This document shows positions 319 to 12,192 of a stretch of 64,000 nucleotides of DNA, piece by piece; the first letter of the stretch is position 1; the number at the start of each line of letters is the position of its first letter. The position numbers and the translations under genes are program-made. Location: the sequence record NC_133119.1. One strand, 5' to 3'. Origin of the DNA: Escherichia phage EscoHU1. The notes under the pieces were generated by a model. The model saw nothing but the letters and a program-made list of their open reading frames with translations, was not told the DNA's origin and did not search any database.

Positions 319-336
319 ACAAATTCCTTTAAATTG

Positions 337-412
337 GTTGACCGTCTGGGATTCGAACCCAGAACCTACGAGGTAAAAGCTCGGTACTCTTATCCAGTTG
401 AGTTAACGGTCA
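337..412 (-). tRNA. tRNA-Lys (anticodon UUU)
   Basis: Minus-strand cloverleaf: acceptor TTGACCG/CGGTCAA, T-arm CTGGG-TTCGAAT-CCCAG, anticodon loop CTTTTAC. Confidence 0.55.
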
Positions 413-761: not shown

Positions 762-978
762 AATATTCTTTGTTAACTCACTTTATAAAATATATTATAC
801 AGACATTTAAGTATAATAGCAAATGAGTTTTTAATAAATTTACTTATTGCGTAGGCCACCTGGAGGGTTCAAGCCCCACGGCTGACAAAGAAGTTTGCGA
901 GACTTCTCTTAAATGCCAGAATAGACCCGCCGATCTATCGGAACCTACTCGATAAGTAAACTTTCATTTACTTACTTA

Positions 979-1365
979 TTATGTGCTGTGTATTTCTCGA
1001 TGACAATTCGCACACACTAAAATACATTTCTGTAATTCTTCTCTCAGCTTATCCCTGGAAATACCAGAGGATCTGAATTGACTAATATTATAGTCTTTTG
1101 AGTTTTCATCAATATGATGAAAATCCAGAGCTTGTTTGCATTTATTATACCCACAAATAGAACATTCTAATATAGGGAAGTATTCTGCAATAATAGAATC
1201 AACAGTTTCACGTCTTTTTGCATTTTCGCTAATCTTACATGTTGGCTTCCACTTTTGTTTACCCGAGGGATATATTCCATTAGTATAGAAATATTCCTTG
1301 GTTAGTGGGTGTTCCACACCACAGTTTTTACAAAACTTGTATTCCATAGCTCCTCGAACAGTCAA
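979..1365 (-). CDS. HNH homing endonuclease
   Basis: 128 aa ORF with N-terminal CxxC zinc motifs and C-terminal HH...N...CANCH HNH signature; sits between tRNA genes. Confidence 0.7.
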   Translation of the reverse strand: MTVRGAMEYKFCKNCGVEHPLTKEYFYTNGIYPSGKQKWKPTCKISENAKRRETVDSIIAEYFPILECSICGYNKCKQALDFHHIDENSKDYNISQFRSSGISRDKLREELQKCILVCANCHREIHST

Positions 1366-1491
1366 TCTAGGCAGGACTTGAACCTGCTATCACTTGTGCG
1401 GATTTACGAGAACCATTCTTTCACTCGAATCGAACGAGCTTCTACCCTCGGCAAGCTGGTGCCCCCTCTCCACCACGCTAGAATGTTTATT

Positions 1492-1567
1492 TGGTACACC
1501 CACTAGGACTTGAACCTAGAACCCTCCGCTTAAGAGGCGGTAGCTCTAACCATTGAGCTATGGATGT
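1492..1567 (-). tRNA. tRNA, anticodon read as CUU (Lys); tentative
   Basis: T-arm CTAGG-TTCAAGT-CCTAG, acceptor ACATCCA/TGGGTGT with one G-U, loop CTCTTAA, encoded CCA. Confidence 0.45.
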
Positions 1568-1570
1568 ATA

Positions 1571-1660
1571 TTAGTCCATTGTACATCTACAAAAGAAACC
1601 CCATTTACCGCAGTGTGGACACTGTCCTCCAGAGTTTCTAGCAAAGGATTTGAACTTCAT
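1571..1660 (-). CDS. small Cys-rich peptide (about 29 aa), hypothetical
   Basis: Below ORF-track size cutoff; hand translation MKFKSFARNSGGQCPHCGKWGFFCRCTMD with AAGGAG RBS 7 nt upstream. Confidence 0.3.
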   Translation of the reverse strand: MKFKSFARNSGGQCPHCGKWGFFCRCTMD

Positions 1661-1678
1661 TCAACACTCCTTTAAAGT

Positions 1679-1755
1679 TGGCGCGACCGATGGGATTCGA
1701 ACCCACATTCTCTCCCGTGACAGGGGAGTACCATTACCAAGCCAGCCCCGATCGC
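1679..1755 (-). tRNA. tRNA-Asp (anticodon GUC)
   Basis: Acceptor GCGATCG/CGGTCGC, anticodon stem CTCCC/GGGAG with loop CTGTCAC, T-arm GTGGG-TTCGAAT-CCCAT, CCA. Confidence 0.6.
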
Positions 1756-1764
1756 ATAATTTGT

Positions 1765-1950
1765 TTACTCAGCTTTGAGTTTTTCGATAGCTTCCTTAAC
1801 CTCTTTTAGAGCTTCACGACGTGCATTCTGTTGCTGCATATCTTGTATTAACGTCAGTTTTTGGTTTTCAATTTCTTGATCCCAGACCTTAATATTATTA
1901 ATTAGATTATCACGATCAGCTTCTAGTCGAGCAATTGCACGAGTTGTCAT
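1765..1950 (-). CDS. hypothetical coiled-coil protein
   Basis: 61 aa ORF between tRNAs, charged heptad-like sequence. Confidence 0.45.
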   Translation of the reverse strand: MTTRAIARLEADRDNLINNIKVWDQEIENQKLTLIQDMQQQNARREALKEVKEAIEKLKAE

Positions 1951-1977
1951 ATCTATTTCCTCAGTTGTTAATGAAAT

Positions 1978-2060
1978 TGGCGGGCCGTGTAGGATTCGAA
2001 CCTACGTTGTCTTTCGACATGGATTAACAGTCCACCGCCAAACCGCTTGGCTAACGACCC
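1978..2060 (-). tRNA. tRNA with anticodon GUU (Asn) and an unusually long variable arm
   Basis: Acceptor GGGTCGT/ACGGCCC, D-stem GCCA/TGGC, anticodon stem GTGGA/TCCAT with loop CTGTTAA, variable GTCGAAAGAC mini-hairpin, T-arm GTAGG-TTCGAAT-CCTAC, CCA. Confidence 0.45.
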
Positions 2061-2067
2061 TAAAATT

Positions 2068-2143
2068 TGGACGACCGCATGAGATTCGAACTCACATAAG
2101 GAGGTTTTGCAGGCCTCCGCCTAAGCCATTCAGCCAACGGTCG
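2068..2143 (-). tRNA. tRNA, anticodon read as GCA (Cys); tentative
   Basis: Acceptor CGACCGT/GCGGTCG, T-arm GTGAG-TTCGAAT-CTCAT, loop CTGCAAA, CCA. Confidence 0.45.
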
Positions 2144-2321
2144 ATTTATCTTGTTTTTCGAGATCAACGAACTCTAAATCGTTGAAGTCTCCTAGAGTAC
2201 GGGAGTAATAACCGTCTCCAGCATCATAGCCTGATTTACCACACTTACACATCTTAAACTCACGTAGACGTGTAAAGATATGTTCAGAGCCACAACACTT
2301 AAATTTAACTAACTTTTTCAT
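2130..2321 (-). CDS. hypothetical zinc-ribbon protein
   Basis: 63 aa ORF with CC...H...C.C cysteine pattern. Confidence 0.45.
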   Translation of the reverse strand: MKKLVKFKCCGSEHIFTRLREFKMCKCGKSGYDAGDGYYSRTLGDFNDLEFVDLEKQDKSTVG

Positions 2322-2560
2322 CCAACACGCTCCGGTAAATCTTCGAGTTTATATTGAGTAGCCACATTAGCAGCATCTAGTAACAAACCCATATGTTTAA
2401 GAATTCTAGTGATAGCCTCGCCTTCTGCTTCTTCTACAAAGCAACGTAGTTGCATGAAGTCAATACCACCATCCATACCAGAGAAAATGTTAAGTAAGCG
2501 AAGCATTACCAGCTTACGTTCTTTTAATTCTTGTTCTGTCATGTTGCTTCTCCAGTTCAA
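2318..2560 (-). CDS. hypothetical protein
   Basis: 80 aa ORF with promoter cassette immediately upstream (2572-2600). Confidence 0.45.
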   Translation of the reverse strand: MNWRSNMTEQELKERKLVMLRLLNIFSGMDGGIDFMQLRCFVEEAEGEAITRILKHMGLLLDAANVATQYKLEDLPERVG

Positions 2561-2592
2561 TTTATGTAATAATTATACAGAACTTTAAGCGG

Positions 2593-2880
2593 TTAAGCAA
2601 CTACATTTTTCAGAAATATGATGCCTTTCTTTTTCTTCTTATATTTCCATGTTAATGGATTCTGTCGATTATGAACGCTTGAGATCTTTGTCTCGTCAAA
2701 GTTCTTCAGTACCATGTAATCACAGGCCAACTGTTCCAGTGGGATGTGATCTCCGTCAAAAGCATAAACATAAGGCTGTTGACTGGCACGATAATGATAT
2801 ACTTTGTTAATTCTGCGTTTCAGTGACTTATCCGCACAGTAAATAAAGAAGTTTTCAGGATGCATCAGCATCTCCTTCAA
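2593..2880 (-). CDS. hypothetical protein
   Basis: 95 aa ORF in minus-strand early region. Confidence 0.45.
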   Translation of the reverse strand: MKEMLMHPENFFIYCADKSLKRRINKVYHYRASQQPYVYAFDGDHIPLEQLACDYMVLKNFDETKISSVHNRQNPLTWKYKKKKKGIIFLKNVVA

Positions 2881-2883
2881 ATT

Positions 2884-2958
2884 GGTGCACCCCGTTGGTA
2901 ACGATCCAACCTCTCAAGCTCTTCAGGCAAGCGCTAATCCATCTCAGCTAAAGGTGCA
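2884..2958 (-). tRNA. tRNA-like sequence with non-canonical T-loop; anticodon unresolved (possibly GAA)
   Basis: Acceptor GCACCTT/GGGGTGC plus CCA and T-stem GTTGG/CCAAC, but T-loop ATCGTTA and weak anticodon stem. Confidence 0.3.
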
Positions 2959-2963
2959 AATAT

Positions 2964-3041
2964 TGGCAAACCTACTAGGACTCGAACCTAGACCGTACGG
3001 TTTTGGAGACCGACATGCTGTCCAGTAACACTCTAGGGATG
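2964..3041 (-). tRNA. tRNA, anticodon loop CTCCAAA (Trp, CCA); acceptor pairing not verified
   Basis: T-arm CTAGG-TTCGAGT-CCTAG and anticodon arm CGGT-CTCCAAA-ACCG resemble tRNA-Trp; 5' acceptor strand could not be paired by eye. Confidence 0.35.
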
Positions 3042-3048
3042 CAGAAAT

Positions 3049-3125
3049 TGGCGTCCTGTGCGGGGATCGAACCCGCAAATCCTACCTTGAAAGGGTAGTG
3101 ACTTTACCAGTTTGTCTAACAGGAC
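3049..3125 (-). tRNA. tRNA-Glu (anticodon UUC)
   Basis: Perfect acceptor GTCCTGT/ACAGGAC, anticodon stem CTACC/GGTAG with loop CTTTCAA, T-arm GCGGG-TTCGATC-CCCGC, CCA. Confidence 0.65.
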
Positions 3126-3132
3126 TTAAATT

Positions 3133-3223
3133 TGGTGTTGGATGATGGAGTCGAACCACCCGAGACCCTTCCGAGTCGGCAGATTTACAGTCTGCTTCGC
3201 TACCTCTACGATACTAATCCAAC
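3133..3223 (-). tRNA. tRNA-Tyr (anticodon GUA), long variable arm
   Basis: Acceptor GTTGGAT/ATCCAAC, anticodon stem GCAGA/TCTGC with loop CTGTAAA, long variable arm, T-loop TTCGACT, CCA. Confidence 0.55.
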
Positions 3224-3413
3224 ATATTTGAATGAAAAGTAAGTCGGTTAAACTCAAGGTGGAATATTTCAGGAAATCCTGACTTTACCCCTAAAAGCAA
3301 CTCGCTTAGTTACTTCTCATTCAGATATGTTTTCCAAATTAGATAACTATTATACCAAGTTTTGAAGGACTGAGCAAGTCAAATTTTAAAGAACTTGCTC
3401 AGTGCTATATCAG

Positions 3414-3689
3414 TTACTCGAAGCTAGGAGTGACACTCAGTTTGAATGGAAGCTCGAACACTTCTTCATAATCATCATTGAGCGTAATTACACGACCTTC
3501 TAGCTTAGTCATGGTGATTTCGATATCAGCCCTTGCATCAGGAGCCATACCAGCTTCCACACATTTAGCTTTGACTTCCGGCAGAAGTTCTACATCGTAG
3601 AAATAAAGCCATTCAATCTCACCCTCCCAGCCACCCCAGGATTTACAAACAGCACTTTCAACACCAGTTGCAGTAACACGTTTTGACAT
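3414..3689 (-). CDS. hypothetical protein
   Basis: 91 aa ORF, promoter cassette at 3720-3749. Confidence 0.5.
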   Translation of the reverse strand: MSKRVTATGVESAVCKSWGGWEGEIEWLYFYDVELLPEVKAKCVEAGMAPDARADIEITMTKLEGRVITLNDDYEEVFELPFKLSVTPSFE

Positions 3690-3719
3690 TCGTTAACCCC
3701 TTCATCAATTTATATAACT

Positions 3720-3749
3720 ATTATATCAGAAATCTTAAGTAAAAAGCAA
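3720..3749 (-). promoter_or_regulatory. T5-type early promoter (-35 TTGCTT, -10 TATAAT)
   Basis: Reverse complement gives TTGCTT, 18-nt spacer, TATAAT, followed by the conserved AT-rich leader. Confidence 0.5.
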
Positions 3750-3779
3750 GTACATTTTTAAAATTTCTGCTTGGAGGAG

Positions 3780-4052
3780 TTAAACTCCTGATTCTTCAGC
3801 CAGATCAAGCCCAACCAACGTGATTGCCATAATAGCTGCGCCATGTTCTTTCTCTCCTAGCTCTTTGGCTTGAGTGAGAATATTGAGGAATTGCTTTTGA
3901 AAATCTGCAACTTCTTCTGTCATGCCTGCTTCAGCAATAATTCCTTTCAGCATAAAGCGTTGTGCTGTAATTTCAGGATTAGCCATTTGTTTTCTCCAGT
4001 TATTTAGAATGTAAGCCAAACTTAGGATCATAGCGATCGTAAGTCGTACCAT
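3780..4052 (-). CDS. hypothetical protein
   Basis: 90 aa ORF. Confidence 0.45.
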   Translation of the reverse strand: MVRLTIAMILSLAYILNNWRKQMANPEITAQRFMLKGIIAEAGMTEEVADFQKQFLNILTQAKELGEKEHGAAIMAITLVGLDLAEESGV

Positions 4053-4136
4053 TAGTTGAAGCCTTGATGCTATGAAAACGACAGTACATAAATTTACGTA
4101 GTGCTTTCTTAATAGCTTTCATTTTATTTCCTTAAT

Positions 4137-4214
4137 TTGGTAGGGGTGGTGGGATTCGAACCCACAAAACCCGAATTTTAAGTCCGGTACCTATGCCAAT
4201 TCGATTACACCCCC
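4137..4214 (-). tRNA. tRNA with anticodon UAA (Leu-type anticodon) but short variable loop
   Basis: Acceptor GGGGGTG/CACCCCT, anticodon stem CCGGA/TTCGG with loop CTTAAAA, 5-nt variable loop, T-arm GTGGG-TTCGAAT-CCCAC, CCA. Confidence 0.45.
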
Positions 4215-4223
4215 ATGTAATCT

Positions 4224-4571
4224 TTAGAGTTCGTAACCCTGAATATATCGAGCAAAACCAGTAATCTCGAACTGAATTGCCCATGCTACTTCCATATGCT
4301 CAATCTTACTAAAATGAGCGTCAGACTGTTCTAGGAAATAACGAGAGATTATAGGGAACTCAATGTCAAAATCTTCCTTATCCATACCATAGAAGAAGTT
4401 TCCAGAAATATTACGAACTTCACGAAAGAAATCCTCAATCTGAAAATCCATCAGAGGATAAGTATATTCCTCTTTGCTATCATCCGTTTGGAAGAAGCGG
4501 AAATGCACAAGGCAAGAGCCAATCAGATTTACTGCTGGAGTAGTGTAAATATCCATGTTAACCTCGATCAA
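4224..4571 (-). CDS. hypothetical protein
   Basis: 115 aa ORF. Confidence 0.5.
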   Translation of the reverse strand: MIEVNMDIYTTPAVNLIGSCLVHFRFFQTDDSKEEYTYPLMDFQIEDFFREVRNISGNFFYGMDKEDFDIEFPIISRYFLEQSDAHFSKIEHMEVAWAIQFEITGFARYIQGYEL

Positions 4572-4937: not shown

Positions 4938-4951
4938 AAATTTATGAATAT

Positions 4952-4980
4952 ATTATATTAGAAATTTAGCTTCATGGCAA
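4952..4980 (-). promoter_or_regulatory. T5-type promoter positioned to transcribe the downstream tRNA cluster
   Basis: Reverse complement TTGCCA-17-TATAAT; predicted start about 8 nt upstream of the tRNA-Ser 5' end. Confidence 0.5.
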
Positions 4981-5431
4981 GAAAATTTTTCAAGTTTTCT
5001 GTATTCATTTCATCTAAATCCATGAGGGAAGTAAACCCATTTAGTTTTTTAGCAAACTTCTCACCAGCAGAATCATTATCGCCTACGGCTACTACTTTAA
5101 AAGGTTGTAATTTTAGCTGCTTTAGCAATGCTTTGCTAGGGGAAGATCCTAGCATTGCTAGTGCGGGATATCCCGCGTTGTGTAGTGCCACAGCTTTAAA
5201 TACAGATTCTGCAACTAATACTAGGTCTTCATTACCTGTAAGAGTTTCTAAACCCCATAGACATTGAGTAGAAGAATGCGTAAAATATTTAGCTTCAGAA
5301 GGACATTTTCCATGACCTTTAGCTGCACTAGGGTTATATGTTTGATATCCACGTAACATGCCAGAGAAATCATACAGTGGAACTGTTAACCATCCATGTG
5401 GAGAGCCAACAGTGATACTTACCACTATCAA
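4958..5431 (-). CDS. Toprim-like domain protein; start unresolved (possible frameshift with upstream 34-codon ORF)
   Basis: 157 aa ORF with VLVAES...VVAVGDNDSAGEKFAKKL (Toprim-like E and DxD motifs); first codon in frame is TTG with no RBS; an RBS-preceded ATG ORF at 5369-5473 overlaps in another frame. Confidence 0.45.
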   Translation of the reverse strand: MIVVSITVGSPHGWLTVPLYDFSGMLRGYQTYNPSAAKGHGKCPSEAKYFTHSSTQCLWGLETLTGNEDLVLVAESVFKAVALHNAGYPALAMLGSSPSKALLKQLKLQPFKVVAVGDNDSAGEKFAKKLNGFTSLMDLDEMNTENLKNFLAMKLNF

Positions 5432-5505
5432 AGCCCCTAGATAAAAGATGTTGTTTTAACTCGTCAACAGTCATATATGACTCCTATCTATAATTTATAG
5501 AATAT

Positions 5506-5534
5506 ATTATATAGAAAATTTCGGCATTAAGCAA
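5506..5534 (-). promoter_or_regulatory. T5-type early promoter
   Basis: Reverse complement TTGCTT-17-TATAAT. Confidence 0.5.
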
Positions 5535-5542
5535 GTGAAATT

Positions 5543-5839: not shown

Positions 5840-5869
5840 GTTTGATTCCTCTCTCGAATTTATAAATAT

Positions 5870-5898
5870 ATTATACAGAAATTTTCTATATTAAGCAA
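5870..5898 (-). promoter_or_regulatory. T5-type early promoter
   Basis: Reverse complement TTGCTT-17-TATAAT followed by AAGGAG-type RBS; GC hairpin terminator (5905-5935) just upstream on the transcript. Confidence 0.5.
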
Positions 5899-5945
5899 GT
5901 GAAAATTTCTGTATAATAGCCCTCGCTTAGAGGGCTATAACTACT

Positions 5946-11340: not shown

Positions 11341-12192
11341 TTTAGGTATTTTTAAGAACTCTCGTAAAAGTCCATAAAAATACCCGACGGTAGGTAGGGT
11401 CAGCCCCCTCAGATTAAGCTCTGCAGCCCTTCCGTCAGACAATATCTTCCAGTTTAAGTCAGGGTGACTTTGTGGTTATGTTCTCCGTATGTGAAGAACT
11501 CGGTTAGGCTTAGGTCATGACTCCCAGCCTGCTGCTGCCGCTCAACAGGAATTATCGCGAATTACCTGTACTATTGGGCACCATTAGTGACATCTCTCAT
11601 GTCAGCATTTCCCACTCTCATATTCACGCGGTCTGTTAGAATCGCACCTCCGATTTTCGATGCGAAGCTGGATGCCTAGTCTCTAGGTTAAACGGGGCAC
11701 ACACTAGGCAGTGATCCCGAGTTCCGAGTTTGGTTGAGGCCGTCAGGTTTCCTCGTGGTTTAGCTGTTTCGATTCTAACCTAATACTGATCAGGCGGTGT
11801 ACCTCCTGAACCGTCATAGTATGTACTACAGCAGCGAATGCTTATCCGGTATAAGCCCGAGTTATCTGATTCTTTCCGACCGCAGGATTCGAACCTGCAT
11901 CTTCCACCAGTTACGGTTTGATATTACCGTTTATACTAGGACGGCAGTGTTATCACATAAGTCAGTTCGACACCCCACTAACATAAACTAGAGAAGAGTT
12001 TACGAGATTTCGGGACAGCTCCCGAGTTTTCCGCAGATTTTCAGTTCCCTATCAATAGCAATAAGCGTTAGCTCGTAGCCTCTCTCAGAGTACTTACTAG
12101 TCTCCAACTCACCGACTCTATTCAGTGGAATAGCTATCCTAGTAGGAATCACTAAACTCACTCAGCGTAATCGGCTCGCTGTTCTCTAATTT
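11341..12192 (-). ncRNA. candidate long structured non-coding transcript / tRNA leader
   Basis: About 850 nt with no ORF over 64 codons on either strand, visibly higher GC than flanking DNA, directly downstream of a consensus promoter (12201-12229) and upstream of tRNA-Arg; contains a tRNA-like T-arm at about 11880-11896. Confidence 0.35.

What the first reader, a model, noticed from the sequence alone, without database searches (positions are those of the whole stretch)
1366..4214. Non-canonical and unresolved tRNA-like elements within the tRNA cluster
Several elements deviate from standard cloverleaves: (a) 4137-4214 has a Leu-type UAA anticodon but a short variable loop; (b) 1978-2060 pairs a GUU anticodon with a long variable arm containing a GTCGAAAGAC hairpin; (c) 2884-2958 has a good acceptor stem and CCA but T-loop ATCGTTA; (d) 1366-1490 contains two T-arm-like motifs (GCAGGTTCAAGTCCTGC and CTCGTTCGATTCGAG) that do not assemble into a cloverleaf; (e) 2964-3041 has a Trp-like anticodon arm but no pairable acceptor stem. 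These could be pseudo-tRNAs, tRNAs with altered identity, or decoys and targets for host anticodon nucleases.
Basis: seen in the sequence. Interest (0 to 1): 0.45.

Follow-up and report, generated by a model that had tools for sequence, protein, structure and literature searches.

The report
Conserved atypical tRNAs of T5-like phage
The five "odd" elements in this T5-like phage tRNA cluster are not decaying pseudogenes: four are conserved tRNAs with unusual but evolutionarily maintained shapes, and one is a conserved 125-nucleotide tRNA-shaped RNA of unknown function that also occurs in T4-like phages.

Summary
The window is a T5-like Salmonella/E. coli phage (Epseptimavirus-like). Its tRNA cluster is on the minus strand. 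All five oddities are real, but each is conserved and shows compensatory base changes.

- **(a)** A 77-nt short-variable-loop tRNA-Leu(UAA). It keeps the Leu-type D loop, G1·U72 and A73.
- **(b)** A tRNA-Asn(GUU) with a 3–4 bp tetraloop variable arm. The arm covaries across T5-like and T4-like phages.
- **(c)** A tRNA-Phe(GAA), the ortholog of T5 tRNA-Phe. Its T loop AUCGUUA is shared with Acinetobacter and E. coli phages. Its tandem U·U anticodon-stem mismatches were seen only in the T5-like copies.
- **(e)** A tRNA-Trp(CCA) whose mismatches at 2-71 and 3-70 persist across genera, while neighbouring pairs change compensatorily.
- **(d)** The homolog of T5 "RNA2, tRNA-like stable RNA with unknown functions". 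It has a tRNA frame with about 55 nt replacing the anticodon loop. Of its 24 modelled pairs, 21 show a change on both sides. It has no Rfam family, and it also occurs in T4-like phages and a soil contig.

"Pseudo-tRNA" is rejected. Altered identity is not supported by the identity elements. Evasion of host tRNA nucleases, or a decoy role, is plausible only by analogy with published work on T5 tRNAs.

The parts
4138..4214 (-). (a) tRNA-Leu(UAA), 77 nt, type-I shape. It has a 5-nt variable loop, G1.U72, A73, encoded CCA and a Leu-type D loop GAAUUGGCAUA.
   Evidence: ARAGORN. Rfam tRNA 57.4 bits. 339 phage records hold a match over at least 80% of its length; the window allele differs from most by a compensatory C28-G42 in place of U28-A42. 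The diverged KKP_3711 copy has the same shape.
1978..2060 (-). (b) tRNA-Asn(GUU), 83 nt, G73, with a class-II-like variable arm (stem GUC/GAC closing a GAAA tetraloop, then AAC).
   Evidence: ARAGORN and Rfam 59.0 bits. 649 phage records match, 533 of them over at least 80% of the query; the six other copies read (T5-like, T4-like and an unclassified Marfavirus phage) all carry the arm. The arm stem covaries.
2883..2957 (-). (c) tRNA-Phe(GAA), 75 nt, A73, CCA, T arm GUUGG-AUCGUUA-CCAAC, with U28.U42 and U29.U41 mismatches. It is the ortholog of T5 tRNA-Phe.
   Evidence: Rfam 33.4 bits. Relaxed ARAGORN calls Phe. Alignment with T5, Mithridates, AM24 and inny.
2964..3040 (-). (e) tRNA-Trp(CCA), 77 nt, A1-U72, G73, CCA, with acceptor mismatches U2.U71 and C3.U70.
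   Evidence: ARAGORN and Rfam 35.2 bits. The mismatches are conserved in 16 loci and in Sugarlandvirus K7PH164C4, with compensatory changes elsewhere.
1360..1484 (-). (d) Whole RNA2-family element, a tRNA-like stable RNA and homolog of T5 misc_RNA rna2 (T5s06).
   Evidence: T5 annotation. Alignments. Covariance model R1 scores it 147.9 bits. Pair counts.
1478..1484 (-). RNA2 acceptor 5' strand AUUCUAG. It pairs with 1364-1370, with one U.U at 2-71 in this lineage.
1457..1475 (-). RNA2 D arm (UGGU / ACCA, G-rich loop).
   Evidence: All four pairs change on both sides across the family.
1452..1455 (-). RNA2 stem P, 5' strand (CUUG). It is the equivalent of the anticodon stem and pairs with 1393-1396.
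   Evidence: 100% of cells paired and all 4 pairs change on both sides.
1439..1451 (-). RNA2 joiner J1, CCGAGGGUAGAAG, with an invariant GGG.
1424..1438 (-). RNA2 internal T-arm-like hairpin, CUCG-UUCGAUU-CGAG.
   Evidence: Stem covaries: CUCG/CGAG, ACGG/CCGU, UUGG/CCAA, AUGG/CCAU, UCGG/CCGA.
1397..1423 (-). RNA2 conserved core, UGAAAGAAUGGUUCUCGUAAAUCCGCA. It is almost invariant from T5-like to T4-like phages.
1393..1396 (-). RNA2 stem P, 3' strand (CAAG).
1371..1387 (-). RNA2 canonical T arm, GCAGG-UUCAAGU-CCUGC.
1363..1370 (-). RNA2 acceptor 3' strand CUAGAUU plus discriminator G. No CCA is encoded here, whereas KKP_3711 encodes GCCA.

Best explanation
This region is the early tRNA gene cluster of a T5-like (Demerecviridae, Epseptimavirus-like) phage, transcribed on the minus strand. 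The five flagged elements are functional RNAs under purifying selection.

Four are genuine decoders of standard anticodon and isotype. Their unusual architecture is a maintained lineage trait:
- (a) a type-I tRNA-Leu(UAA) that has lost the long variable arm but keeps the E. coli LeuRS determinants;
- (b) a tRNA-Asn(GUU) that carries a short class-II-like variable arm;
- (c) a tRNA-Phe(GAA) with a swapped 54/58 T-loop pair and tandem U.U in the anticodon stem;
- (e) a tRNA-Trp(CCA) with two mismatches near the top of the acceptor stem.

The fifth, (d), is the homolog of T5 RNA2. It has a tRNA frame (acceptor, D arm, T arm) whose anticodon loop is replaced by a conserved branched domain of about 55 nt.

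Shown here: conservation, covariation, retention of identity nucleotides, and heavy phage use of UUA codons.

Inferred: the tRNAs are processed from the cluster transcripts by host RNase P and 3' trimming, charged by host synthetases, and used to translate phage mRNAs.

More speculative: the odd structural features were fixed because they let phage tRNAs escape host tRNA-cleaving defence nucleases while staying chargeable. T5 tRNA-Lys does this through anticodon-stem substitutions. In the same vein, RNA2 may use its tRNA frame for processing and stability while its conserved core binds a protein or RNA partner.
For: Identity of the phage: 93-95% identity to Salmonella phages STG2, Stitch and OSY-STA.

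(a)
- 339 phage records hold a match over at least 80% of its length, and the window allele differs by a compensatory 28-42 change.
- KKP_3711 has a strongly diverged 77-nt Leu(UAA) with the same shape, G1.U72 and A73.
- The D loop aligns with those of long-arm phage tRNA-Leu.
- PMC9976931 states that E. coli Leu identity rests on A73, A15-U48, G18G19 and A20a, not on the long arm, and that arm-less minimal tRNA-Leu remain active.
- UUA makes up 23% of Leu codons in window ORFs.

(b)
- 649 records match.
- Arm stems vary as GUC/GAC, GUUC/GAAC, AUCC/GGAU and GUCA/UGAC, mostly with GNRA loops.
- RNAalifold predicts the arm, with two compensatory pairs.
- GUU and G73 are the Asn identity set (PMC9976931).

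(c)
- It is the ortholog of the annotated T5 tRNA-Phe.
- The T arm shows a compensatory 52-62 change and a U54/A58 to A54/U58 swap.
- The same AUCGUUA T arm occurs in Acinetobacter phages Mithridates and AM24 and in E. coli phage inny.
- T5 tRNA-Phe is charged by E. coli PheRS (PMC9976931, reference 199).

(e)
- The mismatches are kept in Sugarlandvirus K7PH164C4, while pairs 6-67, 7-66 and the T stem change compensatorily.

(d)
- T5 annotates it as a stable RNA, and it occurs in 423 phage records.
- A covariance model built only from T5-like copies finds the T4-like and soil copies at 59-99 bits, while ordinary tRNAs score 11-29 bits.
- 98.2% of cells are paired, against 34-45% in the slid controls. 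21 of 24 pairs show a change on both sides, and 0 of 500 shuffles reach the observed values.

Nuclease context: PMC12409363, PMC11464382 and PMC11555353.
Against: - No expression, processing or charging data exist for this phage.
- Stitch's annotators flagged the Trp gene as 'tRNA-Pseudo'.
- The T5 record notes that its own Phe, Trp and Asn genes do not become amber suppressors. This is expected if the anticodon is an identity element, but it gives no positive evidence. T5's Trp and Asn genes are also different sequences from those in this window.
- E. coli LeuRS failed to charge a Streptomyces type-I tRNA-Leu (PMC6614811), so charging of (a) is not guaranteed.
- The window's Asn keeps the exact AriB motif U36AAUC|C41 of the host tRNA. 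If it resists PARIS, it must do so through the variable arm, which is untested.
- No nuclease is known that targets tRNA-Phe or tRNA-Trp at the mismatched positions.
- The inner fold of RNA2 is unresolved. The proposed GGGY:RUCC pairing has exceptions.
- The pair counts were made on an alignment fitted to the model.
Confidence: 0.6

Rival explanations
1. Neutral drift. The tRNAs are functional, but the odd features are tolerated accidents fixed in an ancestral phage tRNA and spread by recombination and homing-endonuclease-driven mosaicism. They have no adaptive role.
For: The features are nearly invariant within clades, so few independent events are sampled. HNH endonuclease genes are interspersed in the cluster. 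The T-arm alleles of tRNA-Phe look mosaic.
Against: The Asn variable arm varies in sequence and length while staying a hairpin across three phage groups (T5-like, T4-like and the unclassified Marfavirus phage Potts1). The Trp mismatches persist while neighbouring pairs are repaired compensatorily. This pattern is more typical of selection for the feature than of mere tolerance.
Confidence: 0.25
2. Non-translational roles. RNA2, and perhaps the mismatched Trp and Phe species, act as decoys, inhibitors or sponges for host tRNA-binding factors (defence tRNases, toxins, modification enzymes) rather than as decoders.
For: RNA2 has no anticodon loop, yet keeps the tRNA frame and an almost invariant core that includes a CNCGUAA loop-like segment. 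The KKP_3711 copy encodes a perfect acceptor, G73 and CCA. PMC12409363 raises the possibility that over-expressed viral tRNAs inhibit AriB.
Against: No partner is known. The position corresponding to U33 varies (U, C or A), so the segment is not a faithful anticodon-loop mimic. Trp and Phe keep anticodons and the major identity elements. T5 tRNA-Phe is chargeable (PMC9976931).
Confidence: 0.2
3. Altered identity or recoding. The variable-arm Asn tRNA is charged by SerRS or another synthetase, or the arm-less Leu tRNA is charged by a non-Leu synthetase, so the phage mistranslates AAY or UUR codons.
For: (b) combines a variable arm with G73, G1-C72 and G2-C71. PMC9976931 lists these as serine-identity features in E. 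coli. Nematode variable-arm tRNAs with non-Leu anticodons are charged with Leu (PMC3333845). EcLeuRS did not charge a heterologous type-I tRNA-Leu (PMC6614811).
Against: The arm is only 3-4 bp. From my own knowledge, not tested here, E. coli tRNA-Ser arms are longer and their orientation matters. AsnRS determinants (GUU, G73) are intact. (a) retains the full E. coli Leu set, including G1.U72 as in host tRNA-Leu(UAA) (PMC6614811 text). AAY and UUA are abundant in phage ORFs, so proteome-wide substitution would be costly.
Confidence: 0.08
4. Pseudo-tRNAs. The elements are decaying gene remnants that are not expressed as functional RNAs.
For: (c) and (e) score low (33-35 bits). Default ARAGORN misses (c). 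Stitch's annotation labels the Trp gene as pseudo.
Against: Conservation in hundreds of genomes with compensatory substitutions. The same T loop occurs in distant phage families. Each of the four tRNA genes encodes CCA. T5 tRNA-Phe has been shown to be charged (PMC9976931).
Confidence: 0.05

Closest known systems
Bacteriophage T5 RNA2 (misc_RNA rna2, locus T5s06, NC_005859 32959-33083: 'tRNA-like stable RNA with unknown functions')
   Same: Element (d) is its homolog. The two align over their full length with few substitutions, have the same length, and lie between tRNA-Asp and the rnaIV homolog (in the window a tRNA-Lys(CUU) gene lies directly upstream; T5 has an ORF there). Covariance-model scores are 153.0 and 147.9 bits.
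   Different: The window copy has a U.U at acceptor pair 2-71. An HNH-like ORF lies 13 nt downstream of it. Its occurrence in T4-like phages and a soil contig, and its fold, were worked out here and are not part of the T5 annotation.
T5 tRNA-Phe(GAA) (T5t19), reported to be charged by E. coli PheRS (Kholod et al. 1997, via PMC9976931)
   Same: The 5' two-thirds are the same gene, including the two U.U anticodon-stem mismatches.
   Different: T5 has a canonical T arm, GUUCG-UUCAAUU-CGAAC. The window has GUUGG-AUCGUUA-CCAAC, the allele found in Acinetobacter phages Mithridates and AM24 and (with GAUGG/CCAUC) in E. coli phage inny.
Type-I (short variable loop) tRNA-Leu: animal mitochondria and Streptomyces coelicolor tRNA-Leu(CAA) (PMC6614811); BF23 tRNA-Leu1(UAG), 77 nt
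   Same: (a) has a Leu anticodon, a 5-nt variable loop and A73. BF23 and relatives carry a 77-nt Leu(UAG) with a very similar D loop (GGAAUUGGCAUA) and the same variable loop.
   Different: The hosts here are Enterobacteria, whose LeuRS was reported to charge only type-II substrates in the Streptomyces cross-test. (a) keeps the E. coli-type D-loop determinants and G1.U72, which the Streptomyces tRNA need not.
Class-II tRNAs with non-canonical anticodons (nematode nev-tRNAs, PMC3333845)
   Same: (b) is a variable-arm tRNA whose anticodon belongs to an amino acid normally served by class-I-shaped tRNAs.
   Different: The arm in (b) is short (3-4 bp plus a tetraloop). The discriminator is G73, not A73. 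The Asn identity elements are intact, so Asn charging is the default expectation. No charging data exist.
T5 tRNA-Lys(UUU), Thr(UGU) and Asn(GUU) variants that neutralise PARIS AriB (PMC11464382, PMC12409363), and T5 tRNA-Tyr versus retron Eco7 (PMC11555353)
   Same: Same phage group and same gene cluster. The principle is that phage tRNAs differ from host tRNAs at nuclease-recognition sites.
   Different: Those cases involve point substitutions around positions 39-41. The window's Asn keeps the host-like U36AAUC|C41 and differs instead by an added arm. No nuclease has been tied to the Leu, Phe or Trp features.
T4 species 1 and 2 RNAs (rnaC, rnaD)
   Same: They are stable small RNAs of unknown function encoded inside a phage tRNA cluster.
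   Different: No sequence or structure similarity to RNA2. Model R1 does not hit them at E<=1.

Membership tests
tRNA (Rfam RF00005 cloverleaf) | Covariance-model score at or above the gathering score of 29 bits | tested here: met
   (a) 57.4, (b) 59.0, (c) 33.4 and (e) 35.2 bits. Element (d) has no tRNA hit even at E<=10, so (d) is not filed as a tRNA.
tRNA (Rfam RF00005 cloverleaf) | Seven-pair acceptor stem, discriminator and CCA | tested here: inconclusive
   (a), (b) and (c) are fully paired with encoded CCA. (e) forms only 5 of 7 pairs (U2.U71, C3.U70) but has G73 and CCA.
tRNA (Rfam RF00005 cloverleaf) | Canonical T loop with U54...A58 and U55-C56 | tested here: not met
   For (c) only. 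Its T loop is A54-U55-C56-G57-U58-U59-A60. U55-C56 are kept and 54/58 are swapped. This is conserved in Mithridates, AM24 and inny. (a), (b) and (e) have UUCGAAU or UUCGAGU.
tRNA (functional decoder) | Mature, aminoacylated species present in infected cells | not testable with these tools
   Only indirect evidence: T5 tRNA-Phe is charged in vitro (PMC9976931), and T5 RNAs are annotated as stable.
Bacterial tRNA-Leu | Long (class-II) variable arm | tested here: not met
   (a) has a 5-nt variable loop. It aligns with T4, T5 and KKP long-arm tRNA-Leu except for a gap of about 10 nt at the arm.
Bacterial tRNA-Leu | E. coli LeuRS determinants: A73, A14, A15-U48, G18G19, A20a (as listed in PMC9976931) | tested here: met
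   Read from the sequence GGGGGUG-UA-AUC-GAAUUGGCAUA-GGU...GUUUU...A73. Charging itself was not tested.
Class-II (long variable arm) tRNA | Variable region of more than 10 nt forming a stem-loop | tested here: met
   (b) has 13 nt, a 3-bp stem and a GAAA loop. The helix is predicted by RNAalifold and covaries.
Class-II (long variable arm) tRNA | Isotype Leu, Ser or Tyr (or Sec) in bacteria | tested here: not met
   (b) has anticodon GUU (Asn) and G73.
T5 RNA2 family (tRNA-like stable RNA) | Full-length sequence and structure homology to T5 rna2 | tested here: met
   Alignments. R1 scores 147.9 bits for the window and 153.0 for T5.
T5 RNA2 family (tRNA-like stable RNA) | Conserved position in the tRNA cluster (upstream of rnaIV, downstream of Asp/Lys-CUU) | tested here: met
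   Window order is Asp 1679-1755, Lys-CUU 1492-1567, RNA2 1360-1484, then the rnaIV homolog at about 841-960. T5 order is Asp, RNA2, rnaIV.
T5 RNA2 family (tRNA-like stable RNA) | Accumulates as a stable RNA during infection | not testable with these tools
   This rests on the T5 GenBank annotation only. The primary papers are not in the searchable library.
tRNA pseudogene | Decay without compensation and patchy conservation | tested here: not met
   Compensatory changes occur in every element, each of which recurs in hundreds of phage records.
Intron-containing tRNA | Removing the insert leaves a normal anticodon stem-loop | tested here: not met
   ARAGORN intron mode finds nothing at 1360-1484. 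Stem P closes directly on the 55-nt domain and no 7-nt anticodon loop can be reconstituted.
Known tRNA-mimic sRNAs (YrlA/Y RNA-like, tmRNA, T4 rnaC/rnaD) | Match to the curated model or to the reference sequence | tested here: not met
   No Rfam family at E<=10 over 800-4300. ARAGORN tmRNA mode gives only implausible relaxed calls. R1 does not hit T4 rnaC or rnaD.

The most novel reading that the evidence does not exclude
The structural oddities are anti-defence adaptations. The tetraloop variable arm on tRNA-Asn sterically shields an otherwise host-identical anticodon stem from PARIS-type nucleases. The tandem U.U or mismatched pairs in tRNA-Phe and tRNA-Trp remove recognition sites of stem-cutting tRNases. 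RNA2 is a tRNA-framed decoy or inhibitor shared by T5-like and T4-like phages: it enters tRNA processing and CCA pathways and titrates a host tRNA-targeting immune effector.
Probability: 0.2. Interest if true: 0.8.

Novelty: new variant of a known kind. Interest (0 to 1): 0.5.

Why it matters
Phage tRNAs have recently been recognised as counter-defence tools. These genes give concrete, testable candidates for a second mode of escape, namely changes in architecture rather than point substitutions. Three points stand out.

- An arm-less tRNA-Leu and a variable-arm tRNA-Asn in phages of Enterobacteria challenge the textbook class I / class II assignment. They offer natural substrates for probing LeuRS, AsnRS and SerRS discrimination.
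- RNA2 is a structured RNA family with strong covariation support and no Rfam entry. It is shared by two unrelated phage families. Defining it would improve annotation, because it is currently unannotated or miscalled as tRNA-Arg(CCG).
- The result also shows that annotating such genes as 'tRNA-Pseudo' or 'tRNA-OTHER' is probably wrong.

Tried and rejected
- **Host origin.** BLAST of (a), (b) and RNA2 against 5,426 complete E. coli genomes gave only short, insignificant T-arm hits or weak full-length matches at about 71% identity and E around 1-2 to tRNA-Lys genes, or nothing. There is no close host homolog, and isotype could not be assigned this way.
- **RNA2 as two decayed tRNAs.** Relaxed ARAGORN gives overlapping Ile(AAU) and Arg(CCG) calls, and KKP_3711 annotates the 5' part as tRNA-Arg. 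I rejected this because the 5' and 3' ends of the whole element pair as one acceptor stem that covaries.
- **RNA2 as an intron-containing tRNA, tmRNA, YrlA or T4 rnaC/rnaD homolog.** No support.
- **Single-sequence folding of RNA2.** MFE folding was uninformative, with z = 0.33.
- **MAFFT alignment of distant RNA2 copies.** It misregistered the 5' half, so I used a hand alignment and then a covariance model instead.
- **Inner fold of RNA2.** Two candidates remain: GGGY:RUCC, or an anticodon-like hairpin UGGUU-CNCGUAA-RUCCG. They could not be separated, because the partners are invariant and the one covarying pair has exceptions.
- **Promoter and terminator scan.** It showed no enrichment over shuffles.
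- **Literature searches.** Searches for the original T5 stable-RNA papers and for any description of a variable-arm tRNA-Asn in phages found nothing in the available library.

Full report
**What the window is.** The first 6 kb is 93-95% identical to the tRNA region of Salmonella phages OSY-STA, STG2 and Stitch, which are T5-like siphoviruses (Stitch and its close relatives are classified in Demerecviridae, Epseptimavirus). 565 phage records match. All tRNA genes lie on the minus strand, interspersed with small ORFs. ARAGORN finds 14 tRNAs in the window. Rfam's tRNA model finds those 14 plus two more. The T5 reference record, annotated by the group that studied T5 RNAs experimentally, lists tRNAs in the homologous region. 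It also lists eight 'stable RNAs' of unknown function: rna1, rna2, rna3, rnaI, rnaIII, rnaIV, rna2H and rnaX.

**(a) tRNA-Leu(UAA), 4138-4214(-).**
The tRNA is 77 nt, with anticodon loop CUUAAAA and a 5-nt variable loop GUUUU. It has G1·U72, A73 and encoded CCA, and scores 57.4 bits.
- It is not a one-off. 339 phage records, nearly all T5-like, hold a match over at least 80% of its length, and 16 of the loci I read hold the full 77-nt gene. Most differ from the window by U28-A42 in place of C28-G42, which is a compensatory double change.
- Enterobacter phage KKP_3711 has a much more diverged 77-nt Leu(UAA). Its acceptor, anticodon and T stems all differ and all pair, and it has the same shape, G1·U72 and A73.
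- BF23 and relatives carry a 77-nt Leu(UAG) with a very similar D loop (GGAAUUGGCAUA). It sits where T5 has an 85-nt long-arm Leu(UAG).
- Aligned with T4, T5 and KKP long-arm tRNA-Leu, these short forms keep the Leu-type D loop (GAAUUGGCAUA in the window). They simply lack about 10 nt at the arm.
- According to the identity review PMC9976931, E. coli Leu identity depends on A73, A15-U48, G18G19 and A20a, not on the long arm. Minimal tRNA-Leu without the arm remain active. All of these nucleotides can be read in (a).
- Against an easy conclusion, PMC6614811 reports that nearly all bacterial tRNA-Leu are type II. It also reports that E. coli LeuRS did not charge the Streptomyces type-I tRNA-Leu(CAA).
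- Window ORFs use UUA for 23% and CUA for 16% of Leu codons, so a UAA decoder is in demand.

**(b) tRNA-Asn(GUU), 1978-2060(-).**
The tRNA is 83 nt and scores 59.0 bits. Between the anticodon and T stems lie 13 nt, GUC-GAAA-GAC-AAC.
- 649 phage records match, 533 of them over at least 80% of the query. Every copy I read, from T5-like, T4-like and an unclassified (Marfavirus) phage of Klebsiella, Erwinia, Proteus and Salmonella, carries the arm. Further T4-like Pectobacterium and Enterobacter phages match over 85 nt.
- Fetched examples show the arm is a maintained hairpin. The forms are GUUC-GAAA-GAAC (Proteus RP7), AUCC-GCAA-GGAU (JNwz02), GUCA-GAAA-UGAC (Roth21) and GUC-UUAG-GAC (Potts1).
- RNAalifold predicts the helix with compensatory changes. 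The anticodon, acceptor, D and T stems also covary.
- T5 itself and KKP_3711 carry ordinary 78- and 76-nt Asn genes.
- GUU plus G73, the Asn identity set (PMC9976931), are intact.
- The anticodon arm is host-like, including U36AAUC|C41. This is the motif at which PARIS AriB cuts E. coli tRNA-Asn as a secondary target (PMC12409363). I found no paper describing a variable-arm tRNA-Asn.

**(c) tRNA-Phe(GAA), 2883-2957(-).**
Default ARAGORN misses it and relaxed ARAGORN calls Phe. Rfam gives 33.4 bits and flags two non-pairs in the anticodon stem.
- It is the ortholog of T5 tRNA-Phe. All T5-like alleles share U28·U42 and U29·U41.
- The T arm exists as several alleles. They are GUUCG-UUCAAUU-CGAAC (T5)...UUCGAUA... 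(most phages) and GUUGG-AUCGUUA-CCAAC (window, Stitch). The last differs by a compensatory 52-62 change and a reciprocal U54/A58 to A54/U58 swap.
- The AUCGUUA arm is identical in Acinetobacter phages Mithridates and AM24. It occurs as GAUGG-AUCGUUA-CCAUC in E. coli phage inny, so it is an old, maintained variant.
- In AM24 and inny the anticodon stem is fully paired, and in Mithridates one U·U remains. The tandem U·U was therefore seen only in the T5-like copies among those compared.
- T5 tRNA-Phe is reported to be recognised by E. coli PheRS, with Mg-dependent identity requirements (PMC9976931, citing Kholod 1997).

**(e) tRNA-Trp(CCA), 2964-3040(-).**
- ARAGORN calls it and Rfam gives 35.2 bits. 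The acceptor is A1-U72, U2·U71, C3·U70, then four pairs, followed by G73 and CCA. 'No pairable stem' is therefore too strong.
- Sixteen loci carry it with U3 instead of C3, which does not pair either.
- In the more distant Klebsiella Sugarlandvirus K7PH164C4 the same U2·U71 and U3·U70 persist. Pairs 6-67 and 7-66 and the whole T stem have changed compensatorily. That pattern argues that the mismatches are tolerated or selected rather than a sign of decay.
- The major Trp determinants (G73, CCA, first pair; PMC9976931) are present.
- Stitch's annotators called it 'tRNA-Pseudo'. T5's own Trp gene is a different 71-nt sequence that ARAGORN does not recognise.

**(d) 1360-1484(-), the RNA2 family.**
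- The two T-arm motifs belong to one 125-nt element homologous to T5 'rna2: tRNA-like stable RNA with unknown functions'.
- It is present in 423 phage records and is mostly unannotated.
- A pattern from its core retrieved further copies: Acinetobacter phage 133 (between tRNA-Gly and tRNA-Cys), two other T4-like contigs of 164-167 kb, and a soil metagenome contig that also carries tRNA genes. There is no copy in 5,426 complete E. coli genomes.
- Comparison shows a tRNA frame with these parts:
  - a 7-bp acceptor, perfect plus G73 plus CCA in KKP_3711;
  - a D arm with a G-rich loop;
  - a 4-6 bp stem P in the place of the anticodon stem;
  - a 5-nt variable loop and a canonical T arm.
- Stem P encloses about 55 nt. 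This insert consists of a joiner with invariant GGG, a second T-arm-like hairpin NNNG-UUCRAUU-CNNN, and the nearly invariant UGAAAGAAUGGUUCNCGUAARUCCGCA.
- A covariance model built only from seven T5-like copies scores the T4-like L004 copy at 98.7 bits, with every modelled pair standard although the stem sequences differ. Phage 133, the soil contig and L031 score 59-65 bits. Ordinary tRNAs score 11-29 bits, and T4 rnaC and rnaD are not hit.
- On the resulting alignment 98.2% of cells pair, against 34-45% when partners are slid. 21 of 24 pairs show a change on both sides, and no shuffle reaches the observed values. The caveat is that the alignment was fitted to the model. A hand alignment gave the same picture.
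- Rfam has no family for it.
- The inner fold is unresolved. The window copy has U2·U71 and no encoded CCA.

**How it probably works.**
- Shown: all five elements are maintained by selection, and four keep the nucleotides that host synthetases use.
- Inferred: they are cut out of cluster transcripts by host tRNA-processing enzymes, and the four tRNAs are charged and decode phage mRNAs.
- Speculative: the architectural deviations were fixed because they blunt host tRNA-targeting nucleases. The published precedents are T5 tRNA-Lys, -Thr and -Asn against PARIS and T5 tRNA-Tyr against a retron (PMC11464382, PMC12409363, PMC11555353).
- Also speculative: RNA2 uses a tRNA frame for processing and stability while its conserved core engages an unknown partner.
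- Neutral fixation, a decoy role and altered identity remain open, with lower weight. Pseudogene status is rejected.

**Novelty and score.** RNA2 and the T5/BF23 tRNA genes are in public records, so nothing here is a new kind of object. What appears undescribed in the literature I could search is the following:
- the variable-arm tRNA-Asn lineage and its spread across T5-like, T4-like and Marfavirus phages;
- the conserved arm-less tRNA-Leu in phages of Enterobacteria;
- the maintained mismatches in tRNA-Trp and tRNA-Phe;
- the fold and cross-family distribution of RNA2.

I rate this as a new variant of a known kind, of moderate interest.

Noticed in passing
window 841-960 (-): Homolog of T5 'rnaIV', another stable RNA of unknown function. 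It lies downstream of RNA2, as in T5. Relaxed ARAGORN miscalls its opposite strand as tRNA-Leu(CAA).
   Followed up: partly
window 979-1347 (-): HNH-like ORF of about 122 aa. The Pfam HNH match is 17.3 bits, below the cutoff, but relatives annotate it as an HNH nuclease. It starts 13 nt downstream of RNA2, where phage Stitch has tRNA-Gly(GCC), and the window has no Gly(GCC) gene. This looks like homing-endonuclease mosaicism in the tRNA cluster.
   Followed up: partly
window 11873-11946 (-): Weak tRNA-like element (Rfam 29.3 bits; relaxed ARAGORN calls Ser-ACU) about 530 nt upstream of tRNA-Arg(UCU). T5 annotates a 719-nt 'rnaX' stable RNA next to its tRNA-Arg. Homology was not checked.
   Followed up: no
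L027 (IMGVR_UViG_2974654585_000001), Trp tRNA homolog: One T5-like genome carries the mismatched Trp tRNA with anticodon CUA instead of CCA. This is a natural amber-suppressor-type allele.
   Followed up: no
L012 3881-3957 (BF23 fragment AJ604530) versus L010 5625-5709 (T5): At the same position in the cluster, BF23-type phages have a 77-nt short-loop tRNA-Leu(UAG) and T5 has an 85-nt long-arm tRNA-Leu(UAG). Both architectures of the same isoacceptor therefore circulate in the group.
   Followed up: partly
L004 8968-9097 and 9119-9232 (+): The T4-like IMG/VR contig that carries an RNA2 copy has two more tRNA-framed elements with inserts of about 50-60 nt between the D arm and T arm. ARAGORN finds no tRNA in this locus. 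The first contains CUCGUAAAUC, as in the RNA2 core.
   Followed up: no
window 335-412 (-), tRNA-Lys(UUU): The 3' side of its anticodon arm reads U36-A-C-C-U-C. This differs at positions 38-41 from the U36AAUC|A41 motif cut by PARIS AriB in E. coli tRNA-Lys (PMC12409363). It is consistent with a PARIS-resistant allele but not identical to the T5 one.
   Followed up: no
L009 1549-1618 (Enterobacter phage KKP_3711) and OSY-STA record: Public annotations miscall these RNAs. KKP_3711 labels the 5' part of RNA2 as tRNA-Arg(ccg). Stitch labels the Trp and Ser(GCU) genes 'tRNA-Pseudo', and OSY-STA lists a 'tRNA-Asx'.
   Followed up: partly
L010 9178-9248 (T5 tRNA-Trp, 71 nt): T5's annotated tRNA-Trp is unrelated in sequence to the window's Trp gene and is not detected by default ARAGORN. 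It is another atypical tRNA in the group.
   Followed up: no
window about 2560-2610, 3345-3395, 3700-3750, 4940-4990, 5490-5540, 5860-5910 (-): Repeated AT-rich sequences that read on the minus strand as TTGCTN-17-TATAAT with an A-rich upstream tract. By eye they are T5-type early promoters ahead of each tRNA/ORF block. The generic promoter scan showed no enrichment.
   Followed up: no
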